Positions 33,601 to 36,600 of a stretch of DNA of 64,000 nt are shown piece after piece. The notes under the pieces are model-generated. The model was not told the origin of the DNA, did not search any database, and saw nothing but the letters and a program-made list of their open reading frames with translations. Positions within the stretch are counted from its first letter, which is position 1; the number at the start of each line of letters is the position of its first letter. Source of the DNA: Octopus vulgaris (lineage: Eukaryota); contig OX597817.1 in the NCBI GenBank assembly GCA_951406725.2, positions 33,852,001 to 33,916,000 on the forward strand, given 5' to 3'. Position numbers and translations under genes: made by a program.

Positions 33601-36600
33601 GAAATCTTTACTCAAGAGGCTGTAAAGATCATTCAAAATCATAATGAAACAAAGGTAAGATGTTTAGTCTTAGATAAATGTTTATTTGTTTTTCTACACA
33701 CACACACACACATATATCATCATCATCATTTAACGTCTGTTTTCCATGTTGGCATGGGTTGGACAGTTTGACTGGGGTCTAGAGAGCCAGCGGCTGCACC
33801 AGGCTCCAATCTAATCTGGCAGTGTTTCTACAGCTGGATGCCCTTCCTAATGCCAACTACTCCAAGAGTATAGTGGGTGCTTTTTACATGCCACCAGCAC
33901 AGTTGCCAGTCAGGGTGGCCTGGCATCGATCACATTCAGATAGTGCTTTTTACATGCCACCGGCACAGGAGCTAGTCAGAGGGAACTGGCCACAGCTAAG
34001 ATATTGGTTTTACTTGACTCAGTAGATCTTCTCAAGCATATCATATCACCCGCCGCATCAGGGGTATTCTTAACAGGGCCAGACATGCATGGCTGTGATC
34101 TCACTTTAGTTGCCGCATCTTCTTAATCACAGCATATCTCCAAAGGTCCCGGCCTGCTGTCATTGCCTCTGTGAGGCACAATGTTTGAAGGTCATGCTTC
34201 ACCACCTCATCCTATGTCTTCCTGGTTCTACCTCTTCCACAGATTCCTTCTACAGTTAGGGAGTGGCTCTTCCTCACACAGCTCTCTTCATACGTAACAC
34301 ATGACCATACCAGTGCAGTCACCTCTCTTGCACACCACATTTGATGCTTCCTATACTCAACTTTTCTCTCAGGGCACTTACACTCTGTCATGTATGCACA
34401 CTGACATTACATATCCAGCAGATCATTTCTTTCAAGCCTACGCATGTCCTCAGCATTCATGGCCCATGTTTCATTGCCGTGTAGCATGGCAGTTCGCACA
34501 CATGCATCATACAGTCTACCTTTCACCCTGAGCAAGAGGCCCTTAGTTGCCAGCAGAGGTAGGAGCTCCCTGAACTTTGCCTAGACTATTCTTACTATAG
34601 TCGCTAAATAGTCAGAGCAACACCCTCAACCACCACCACTACAGACTTAGTCGCCTTGGTAGCAGAAGCTATTAACTACTTCTAGTTTCTGCCCTTGGCA
34701 TATAATGGAATCTGTTTTCTGTACATCTTCAGTGTTTATTGCCCCAGTGCATCTTCCACACACAAAAGCTATTTTCCCAGTTAGCCTTCCTTTGATATTG
34801 CTGCACCTTTTATGTGTCCATAGCTTACACTGGGTGCATTGTATGGAGTTTCTACCCACACCTTTTCTACAGATCGAGCAGGGCCATCTACCTGAAGGAG
34901 ATTGTGATTTGACAGCCTTCCTACTTACTAAGACTTTGGCTTTTGCTTGGTTAACCTTAAGGCTCTTCGATTCTAGACCTTGCATCCATACCCTAAACTT
35001 CATCTCCATTTCTGGCAGTGACTTGGCTATTAGAGTAAGGTCATCAGCATAGAGGAACTCCCAAGGGCAGCCTGTCTTGAATTCCTCTGTTATTGCCTGG
35101 AGGACTATAATAAATATGAGGGGTCTGAGGACTGATCCTCGATGAACCCCTATTTCTACTTGGAATTATTCATTATACTTGTTGCCAACCCTCACCTTAC
35201 AGCATCCTTGTATGTGGCTTGTACAGCTCTTACCAGCCACTTGTCTATCTCCAGTTTCTGCATTGACCACCAGATAATGGATCGGGGGACCCTGACAAAG
35301 GCTTTCTCCAAGTCAACAAAAGCCAAGCACAGAGGTTTATCTTTGGCTAGGTATTTCTCCTGCAGTTGCCTTACCAGAAATATAGCATCAGTGGTGCTTC
35401 TGCCTGGCACAAAACCAGACTATGTCTCATCTAGGCTAACTCTCTCCCTAATTAGTTGGGCTATGACCCTCTCTGTAACTTTCATCACCTGATCCAATAA
35501 TTTGATACCCCTTTAGTTATTTCTGTCTATATATATTTCTATCTAAAACATCACCTTTCTATATTTGTGTGTGTGAGAGAGAGATTACTGCTTGCAGTAA
35601 TTGGTATTAATTAATCCATAAGGTACTTATTTATAGTTAAGTAGACTGAACTAATCTGAAAATAGTTACTACAACAAAGTTGAAATATTTGGATGTTGCA
35701 TGTCAGTAAAAGTTCCAGAGACAACACTAAACAAAAGGAACAATTTCATGAAAAAAAGAAAGAGAAAACAAAATATAACATTTGGAACCTAAAAACATAT
35801 TTACTTATGTTACTGTCTGTATTCATTTTTTGTTTTTATTGTTTTGTTGCGTTTTTGTACCCCATTTCATAAAACATTTTTCTTTTTTTTTTTTTTTTGC
35901 AATATTTTGATTCCTTATATTTTCTATAGAATTATCAACATTTTATCCCATTTTTATACTTAGCCACTTTTTTTGTACCTCCCTTACCAAGCTGTACACA
36001 GTTCAAGTATTCAACCTTATTTAGAAGCACCTGAAAAATATACAAAAAGATTTCCAAATATCTCAAATAAACAGCGGAAGCTTTTTGCAGGTAAGTTAGA
36101 TTAAAACCATAGCATTAGTTTTAGCAAAGATATATTCTTTTACCTGAGGCTAAATAACAGCAAATAGCCAGGACTACCACATTATGTTGGCAAATAATCT
36201 TTACACTAGAGTACTGTTACTGAATGTTTCTCATTCAAAGATTTAGCAATAATAATTTTTCTATTTATGAGATCAGTGACTGTGTGTTACTTTGAAAAGT
36301 CTATATTTTGAACAAGAGTTTAGTGTCACCATCTCTAGCCAAGCAGTTATTCTGTGTTGATGAAAGGAAATAACTTAGAAACCATTGATTCGCAGATATT
36401 GCTTTAGAGCTGAGTGGGGACACTAAACTCCTTTGTTCAAAAATATAAGGACGCAGATACTGTGTCAATAGCCAGCTGGAGACAATGTTTCCTGGGGCTA
36501 AATGACAGTAACATTCATCCTAACCAGGACTGCCACATTATGTTGGCAAACAATCTTTACTATATATATATATACATTCTCTGCTATGATTTGGTAAGTG

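What the first reader, a model, noticed from the sequence alone, without database searches (positions are those of the whole stretch)
36143..36560. ~356-nt rod-like retrozyme unit in sense orientation just after arylsulfatase exon 7
Seen: terminal direct repeats at 356-nt spacing and a long hairpin (TATATTTTGAACAAGAGTTTAGTGTC 36302-36327 pairs with GACACTAAACTC..TTGTTCAAAAATATA 36419-36447). The hairpin is capped by a hammerhead: UCUGUG UUGAUGA AAG-loop-CUU A GAAA CCAUUGA UU CGCAGA. The core carries C3U and stem III has a mismatch. It begins about 50 nt from the donor site, on the pre-mRNA strand. Inference: a viroid-like structured retrozyme whose ribozyme may have been weakened after insertion.
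Basis: partly seen in the sequence, partly recalled or inferred. Interest (0 to 1): 0.72.

Follow-up and report, generated by a model that had tools for sequence, protein, structure and literature searches.

The report
Decayed octopus hammerhead retrozyme copy
This is one old, mutated copy of an abundant octopus repeat family that carries a hammerhead self-cutting RNA motif and was likely spread by Penelope-type retrotransposons; the family seems undescribed, but this intron copy is probably an inert relic.

Summary
In detail: a 356-nt period, a 146-nt hairpin arm and a type I hammerhead with C3U, a stem III mismatch and a U at the cut site, about 50 nt into an intron of an octopod arylsulfatase I/J-like gene, on the sense strand. 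It is one dispersed copy of a large family of ~350-nt units. Sibling copies keep CUGAUGA/GAAA, and the stems covary across subfamilies and a related family, so the ancestral ribozyme is real. The copies carry Penelope-element (PLE) insertion marks: 5' truncation, an inverted partner in 80 of 92 loci, two fixed 3' ends, and (TA)n targets. That makes it a non-LTR retrozyme, most likely moved by a PLE reverse transcriptase. Corrections: the unit folds branched, not as a rod; the 'terminal repeat' is a partial tandem; there is no antisense ribozyme, so it is not viroid-like; with one hammerhead it cannot cut out a circle. The ribozyme changes are largely private to this copy, but no more numerous than in siblings (11 of 33 have as many), and the intron splices normally. 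Verdict: new octopus member of a known class; this copy is ordinary decay.

The parts
35964..36090 (+). Upstream exon of the arylsulfatase I/J-like host gene (sixth aligned coding exon; seventh if one more exon lies upstream)
   Evidence: tblastn with P0001; GT..AG joints in RNA contigs
36091..39416 (+). Host intron (3326 nt) that holds the element; spliced out in contigs of 4 of 4 runs laid
   Evidence: table 5
36140..36204 (+). 5'-truncated partial unit (last ~70 nt of a monomer, with an 8-nt deletion): the first 'terminal repeat'; 5' edge uncertain by a few bases
36205..36560 (+). Full 356-nt monomer, 36% GC, no ORF over 25 codons
36302..36447 (+). Long hairpin arm with the hammerhead at its tip; pairing kept between subfamilies by compensatory changes
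36351..36396 (+). Type I hammerhead, decayed: U3 (36357), A.A at 10.1-11.1 (family trait), stem II 36365-36367/36374-36376, GAAA 36378-36381, C15.2.A16.2 mismatch (36382/36388), U17 (36390), predicted cut after 36390
36488..36560 (+). 3' end of the unit; the part most conserved between families A, B and C, and the commonest end point of copies (inferred priming/recognition end)
36561..36574 (+). (TA)n tract at the 3' junction, the likely insertion target
   Evidence: family enrichment 31 of 71 ends against 11.8% of control windows

Best explanation
The stretch is a single, 1.18-unit, mutated copy of a dispersed octopus repeat family with a conserved type I hammerhead motif, likely a non-autonomous non-LTR retrozyme that was inserted by a Penelope-type reverse transcriptase and is now probably inert. 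Shown: family, unit size, conserved core, covarying stems, insertion shapes, intron position, normal splicing. Inferred mechanism: a source locus with two or more tandem units is transcribed; its hammerheads cut (probably as a dimer, given the short palindromic stem III) and the monomer is ligated to a ~350-nt circle, or the multimer stays uncut; a PLE GIY-YIG endonuclease nicks a (TA)n-rich site and the PLE reverse transcriptase starts at a fixed point, the unit's 3' end about 170 nt downstream of the cut site, copies through the cut site and stops at a variable place, giving more-than-unit or truncated copies, often with an inverted partner and a ~60-nt tail on one side. This copy landed in sense orientation in the intron and then drifted 6.8% from its clade's majority. 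Its ribozyme is predicted to be weak or dead, and with one hammerhead it cannot release a circle.
For: Family: 4066 first-look candidates, 40 scored, non-self 78-88% identical; 638 exact hits of a 33-nt 3'-end motif and 141 of the subfamily B core motif, controls 0. Core kept in siblings: C3 72/79, G5 75/79, G8 75/79, G12 68/79, all 11 invariant bases plus H17 in 34/79; 28 of 32 full subfamily B units intact. Stem III pair 15.2-16.2 is U-A in 34 and C-G in 24 of 64 monomers. Across 18 hand-picked copies of A, B and C, 8 of 13 hammerhead pairs change on both sides and 87.6% of cells pair, against at most 48.5% when slid (copies are related, so not independent). PLE marks in 92 subfamily B loci: inverted partner 80, tail on one side only 63, 162 of 179 3' ends at two positions; these match PLE insertion features in PMC8557442 section 6. 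Intact RT + GIY-YIG elements exist in the genome. No pile-up of 5' ends at the cut site (4 seen, 7.3 expected; 60 segments cross it), so the template was not a cut linear monomer. Decay is ordinary. Splicing intact.
Against: No cleavage, circle or transcript of the unit was shown. The 10.1-11.1 position is A.A or A.G in families A and B (1 of 64 paired), so even 'intact' copies may be slow; 8 of 9 predicted Xenopus dimers did not cut in vitro (bioRxiv 10.64898/2026.07.22.740005). No autonomous partner was found: the one PLE family examined shares no DNA with the unit. Long tandem arrays typical of retrozymes were not seen; only 3 of 92 loci have two same-strand hammerheads. One test did show excess change in this copy's hammerhead (8 of 24 differences in 46 of 353 columns, Fisher p = 0.007).
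Confidence: 0.82

Rival explanations
1. The unit is not an independent retrozyme but the solo pseudo-LTR / 3' end of an autonomous Penelope-like element, left by heavy 5' truncation.
For: All insertion marks are PLE marks. In Xenopus, 24 of 57 retrozyme families match known elements, nearly all PLEs, at their pLTRs. 14,969 first-look PLE candidates exist here and only 150 were scored.
Against: Copies longer than one unit run back into the same unit, not into an ORF (dimers and trimers L067, L089, L096). tblastn with the PLE frame found PLE pieces in only 4 distinct element loci (L142/L173 aside: L133=L109, L081, L115), none joined to the unit as its 3' end. PLE hammerheads are described as minimal, with long helix II and short helix I (PMC4209133); this one has a 6-bp helix I.
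Confidence: 0.1
2. The ribozyme in this copy was selectively disabled because cutting the nascent RNA 300 nt after the donor site harmed arylsulfatase expression.
For: Sense orientation near a donor. Against the 17-copy clade, 8 of 24 differences fall in the hammerhead (p = 0.007; 6 of 17 at fixed columns, p = 0.018). Retrozymes are under-represented in Xenopus introns.
Against: With 33 siblings the count is 4 of 42 fixed columns, sibling mean 3.0, 11 of 33 as high; base-matched P = 0.09. In one search four of 17 siblings carry 7-8 hammerhead differences (gaps counted). Five of the six changes at fixed columns are C>T or G>A, the commonest drift. The copy was picked for its mismatches. A lone hammerhead with a short stem III may have cut poorly from the start (PMC4209133).
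Confidence: 0.12
3. The copy still cuts slowly and tunes arylsulfatase pre-mRNA output, or its long hairpin acts on splicing or editing of the neighbouring exon.
For: Stems I and II still pair in this copy (36365/36376 is A-U where siblings have G-C). It folds more stably (-104.6) than 10 of the 12 other A-type monomers sampled.
Against: U3.G8, C.A in stem III and an AUU triplet together; the hammerhead fold costs +3.4 kcal/mol against -1.5 and -2.5 in two intact siblings. Normal spliced joints in 4 of 4 runs; the organism A contigs show 0 other letters across the exon.
Confidence: 0.05
4. It is an integrated viroid-like replicon (RNA-to-RNA rolling circle).
For: Size (356 nt), strong self-pairing (z = -6.6) and a hammerhead.
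Against: No core on the antisense strand in 0 of 65 monomers; branched fold; thousands of copies with PLE insertion shapes.
Confidence: 0.02

Closest known systems
Metazoan non-LTR retrozymes, above all the Mytilus galloprovincialis 350-390 bp repeats (Cervera and de la Pena 2020, PMC7229834)
   Same: ~350-nt non-coding unit, GC under 45%, type I hammerhead, self-paired fold, thousands of motifs, mollusc host with PLEs.
   Different: Here mostly dispersed, truncated and inverted monomers, few dimers or trimers; A.A/A.G at 10.1-11.1; no circle shown; sequence relation to the mussel repeats was not tested. The main text has no 'octopus' or 'cephalopod'; its supplement could not be read.
Penelope-like element insertions and pLTR hammerheads (PMC8557442; PMC4209133)
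   Same: 5' truncation, partial tandem, adjacent inverted copy, tail on one side, (TA)n targets, type I hammerhead with palindromic stem III.
   Different: No ORF; tail about 55-65 nt against 30-40 bp; no DNA match to the one young PLE family tested; hammerhead has canonical helix sizes, not the minimal form.
Vertebrate non-LTR retrozymes as non-autonomous PLE derivatives (bioRxiv 10.64898/2026.07.22.740005)
   Same: Monomer copies spread over chromosomes; 42-44% of Xenopus copies lie in introns, so an intronic copy is common; co-occurrence with PLEs.
   Different: That study covers vertebrates, three insects and a coral, argues from homology and co-occurrence, and counts only elements with two hammerheads as active; this copy has one.
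Intronic conserved hammerheads of amniotes (HH9/HH10; recalled, only the reference title was seen)
   Same: Single hammerhead on the sense strand of an intron.
   Different: Those are conserved and intact; this one is a drifting repeat copy with core changes.

Membership tests
Non-LTR retrozyme | Non-coding repeat unit of about 150-450 bp, low GC | tested here: met
   356 nt, 36% GC, longest ORF 25 codons; units of 347-358 nt in A, B, C
Non-LTR retrozyme | Type I hammerhead with conserved core and paired stems in the family | tested here: met
   10.1-11.1 is non-canonical in A and B; no Rfam hit
Non-LTR retrozyme | Tandem arrangement with two or more hammerheads | tested here: inconclusive
   Not met by this copy (one hammerhead); met by a few siblings: 3 of 92 loci, dimer L203/L204, trimer L089; no long arrays seen, no array-directed search made
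Non-LTR retrozyme | No LTR, PBS or PPT | tested here: inconclusive
   The repeat is a partial tandem whose length varies between copies; PBS and PPT were not searched for
Non-LTR retrozyme | Stable self-paired fold of the monomer circle | tested here: met
   z = -6.6 for this unit; -0.7 to -10.5 for 20 of 65 monomers, 8 shuffles each; compensatory pairs in the long arm
Non-LTR retrozyme | Self-cleavage in vitro and circular RNA in vivo | not testable with these tools
   Only assembled contigs of guessed RNA runs were available
Penelope-like element (autonomous) | RT plus GIY-YIG ORF | tested here: not met
   No ORF in the unit; no PLE frame joined to it
Penelope-like element (insertion mode) | 5' truncation, inverted partner, one-sided tail, microsatellite target | tested here: met
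   Family level. This copy shows the partial tandem and (TA)n only
Viroid / viroid-like replicon | Ribozymes in both polarities; rod or quasi-rod fold; RNA-RNA replication | tested here: not met
   Antisense core 0 of 65; 6 hairpin loops; replication not testable
Plant LTR retrozyme | Type III hammerhead inside each LTR | tested here: not met
   Type I topology, one hammerhead in the middle of the unit, none in the repeat

The most novel reading that the evidence does not exclude
Octopus genomes hold an old lineage of at least three related ~350-nt hammerhead RNA families that are not PLE pLTR debris but independent RNA circles, copied into the genome thousands of times by PLE machinery from a fixed priming site and straight through the ligated cut site; the younger subfamily, with a non-canonical A.A/A.G pair at 10.1-11.1 and a palindromic stem III, still makes circles from its dimer and trimer loci. 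This would be direct structural evidence for the proposed PLE-retrozyme partnership, and a natural hammerhead variant.
Probability: 0.35. Interest if true: 0.62.

Novelty: new member of a known kind. Interest (0 to 1): 0.4.

Why it matters
The single intronic copy matters little. The family matters more: I found no report of hammerhead retrozymes in cephalopods, and its insertion shapes give a direct test of the open proposal that animal retrozymes are moved by Penelope elements, so far argued from co-occurrence and pLTR homology. Thousands of dated copies with and without intact cores also make it possible to test whether active ribozymes are purged from sense-strand introns.

Tried and rejected
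Rfam: no hammerhead at gathering score in the window, none at E up to 10 in 35900-36800, none among the 150 of 219 listed matches in 20 sibling loci (69 weaker rows not shown). Cut-site signature: the first 27 loci hinted at 5' ends near the cut; in 92 loci there was no excess (4 against 7.3 expected; 6 against 7.25 with lenient scoring). ADAR-type bias in copies: none (A>G 70/2970, T>C 73/2957, p = 0.80). Core more conserved than background: clade A 10 seen against 14.4 expected (p = 0.15), clade B 5 against 11.5 (p = 0.03), but copies were chosen by similarity, so not used. Autonomous partner: 30 loci of a young PLE family gave no homology except two neighbouring separate insertions and a 26-nt match at E 0.44; the second PLE in L081 ends on its own. 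Expression: no RNA holder listed as on record; contigs from guessed RNA runs hold family pieces with the same 3'-heavy profile as DNA runs, and one run has a 245-nt contig with one mismatch at 36118-36362, depth 3; contigs cannot show ends, strand, level or circles, so none of this is used for or against. Target-site duplication: only an 8-of-9 match in AT-rich DNA (36130-36138 / 36572-36580), not accepted. Upstream exon: pattern search in 1-10300 found none. Earlier findings of the scan: nothing returned. A paper search for the measured effect of C3U found none; that C3 pairs with G8 rests on passages of PMC3884650 and PMC4209133, the size of the loss on recall. Pfam gave nothing for two short PLE fragments.

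Full report
Observation. There is a direct repeat at 356-nt spacing, which extends to about 70 nt with one gap. The stretch folds far better than shuffles (z = -6.2). The arms 36302-36327 and 36419-36447 pair, with a type I hammerhead at the tip: stem I 36351-36356/36391-36396, core from 36357 with U at position 3, GAAA at 36378, a C.A mismatch at 36382/36388 and a predicted cut after 36390. Folded as a circle, the unit has six hairpin loops and 66% pairing, so only this arm is rod-like.

Host. The last exon matches N-acetylgalactosamine-4-sulfatase and is 93% identical to Octopus bimaculoides arylsulfatase J; the genome has 2.8 Gb in 227 contigs. So the host is an octopod. Eight exons align to that protein and the one before the element is the sixth; an acceptor lies ahead of the first, so it may be the seventh of the transcript. 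Contigs of guessed RNA runs join 33654 to 35964 in 3 of 4 runs and 36090 to 39417 in 4 of 4: the intron is removed normally, and the element begins about 50 nt after the donor on the sense strand. A contig from a run labelled organism E covers 35960-36182 with one difference, crossing the 5' junction, so the insertion is not private to this assembly.

Family. The own-genome search gave 4066 first-look candidates, of which 40 were scored, at 78-88% identity. After removing 15 duplicate loci of 82, 67 remained with 79 non-self segments that span the hammerhead: C3 in 72, G8 in 75, G12 in 68, A17 in 61; 34 keep all 11 invariant bases and an H17. A tree of 65 full monomers separates the clade of this copy (A) from a younger subfamily B; median divergence from the clade majority is 9.0% for 17 A copies and 5.5% for 32 B copies, and this copy is at 6.8%. 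B has 141 exact matches to its core motif and 638 to a 3'-end motif; the A core motif has 6. The closest distinct B copies among 12 loci are 94.5% alike, so no very recent spread was seen. A third, more distant family C (2915 candidates, 40 scored, period 351-364 nt in most repeats seen) shares the 3' end at 72% and has its own hammerhead with a GUC triplet.

The ribozyme is real at family level. Pair 15.2-16.2 is U-A in 34 and C-G in 24 of 64 monomers, and stem I pairs in 56-60 of 60-63. On 18 hand-picked copies of A, B and C, 8 of 13 pairs change on both sides and 87.6% of cells pair, against 8-49% for slid registers; the copies are related, so this counts few independent events. The long arm also keeps pairs through changes on both sides between A and B. 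One oddity: position 10.1-11.1 is A.A (37) or A.G (24) of 64, while some C copies have U-A there. Stem III is short and palindromic, the form that needs a second hammerhead to fold well (PMC4209133, passages). The core is on the sense strand in 46 of 65 monomers and on the antisense strand in none.

How it moved. I took 92 distinct loci from the first 100 listed of the 638 motif hits (left out: 7 second hits inside a locus already taken and one locus already held). Of these, 80 have an inverted partner, 63 have a ~60-nt tail on one side only, and 162 of 179 3' ends fall at two positions, the unit end (74) or the tail end (88). In the A-centred set, 31 of 71 such ends are followed by a microsatellite, against 11.8% of control windows. 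These are the insertion features listed for Penelope-like elements in PMC8557442 (section 6), though the tail is longer. The genome holds young elements with open 784-aa frames; one frame carries RT (E 2e-8) and a weak C-terminal GIY-YIG match below cut-off. That family shares no DNA with the unit, so the partner is not identified. The 5' ends do not collect at the cut site and 60 segments cross it, so the template was a ligated circle or an uncut multimer; the data do not tell these apart. Two loci on contig C7 join the unit to another hammerhead-bearing repeat at different points, as template switching by one enzyme would do (inference).

Was this copy's ribozyme disabled on purpose? Its changes are mostly private: U3 occurs in 6 and U17 in 1 of 79 others. 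The hammerhead fold scores +3.4 kcal/mol against -1.5 and -2.5 in two intact siblings. C3 pairs with G8 in the active fold (passages of PMC3884650 and PMC4209133); that U3.G8 slows cutting strongly is recalled, not sourced. One comparison suggested clustering (8 of 24 differences in the hammerhead, p = 0.007). With 33 siblings and substitutions only, the count is 4 of 42 fixed columns, mean 3.0, 11 of 33 as high, base-matched P = 0.09. Drift is enough; selection is not excluded. With one hammerhead the copy cannot excise a monomer in any case.

Comparison and novelty. It fits metazoan non-LTR retrozymes as described in PMC7229834 (parts 2-4 of 6 of the text and passages read; supplement unreadable, and it may list cephalopod repeats), closest to the mussel 350-390 bp repeats. 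The 2026 preprint 10.64898/2026.07.22.740005 (parts 1-3 of 5 read) already proposes that animal retrozymes are non-autonomous PLE derivatives and finds 42-44% of Xenopus copies in introns. Four searches pairing octopus or cephalopod with hammerhead, ribozyme or retrozyme returned no description of such a family (listings only; passages of PMC8557442 mention Octopus only for Naiad elements); repeat libraries such as Repbase and Dfam could not be checked. Circles and cleavage, the defining functional features, could not be tested.

Verdict. A new octopus family of a known class, well supported by comparison; the flagged copy is an ordinary decayed member with no shown effect on its host gene. 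Interest 0.4, carried by the family and its Penelope-type insertion signature.

Noticed in passing
L165:3085-3135, also L171 and L163 (3' end of a young PLE family; G000): Young RT + GIY-YIG element with many near-identical 784-aa frames; its 3' end has a hammerhead-like motif with U at 3 and A at 8, the covariant core reported for some PLEs in PMC4209133. Read by eye.
   Followed up: partly
L165:3225-3530 and L173-L197: Related family C, ~355-nt period, 2915 first-look candidates, hammerhead with GUC triplet and a longer stem II; shares the 3' end with the flagged unit at 72%.
   Followed up: partly
L026 and L034 (G000 C7, 317 kb apart): The unit is fused, at different points, to a second repeat that bears a minimal PLE-type hammerhead; looks like template switching between two RNAs.
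   Followed up: partly
Subfamily B monomer positions ~220-230 and ~276: 5' truncation and inversion points pile up here (up to 19 of 179 within 7 nt), inside the 3' strand of the long arm; possibly a reverse transcriptase stall or switch site.
   Followed up: no
window 15677-16527 and 17201-18051: An 851-nt stretch is duplicated at 99.9% identity on both sides of arylsulfatase exon 2: recent duplication or assembly artefact.
   Followed up: no
window 48110-48178 (-): Weak tRNA match (32.4 bits), probably a tRNA-derived SINE head.
   Followed up: no
L012/L013 (G000 C24:21773302-21780383): Two near-identical copies with flanks in inverted orientation about 3 kb apart; a local inverted duplication.
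   Followed up: no
L036:1495-1544: An isolated 50-nt piece holding only the exact hammerhead core, next to a long (TA)n tract.
   Followed up: no
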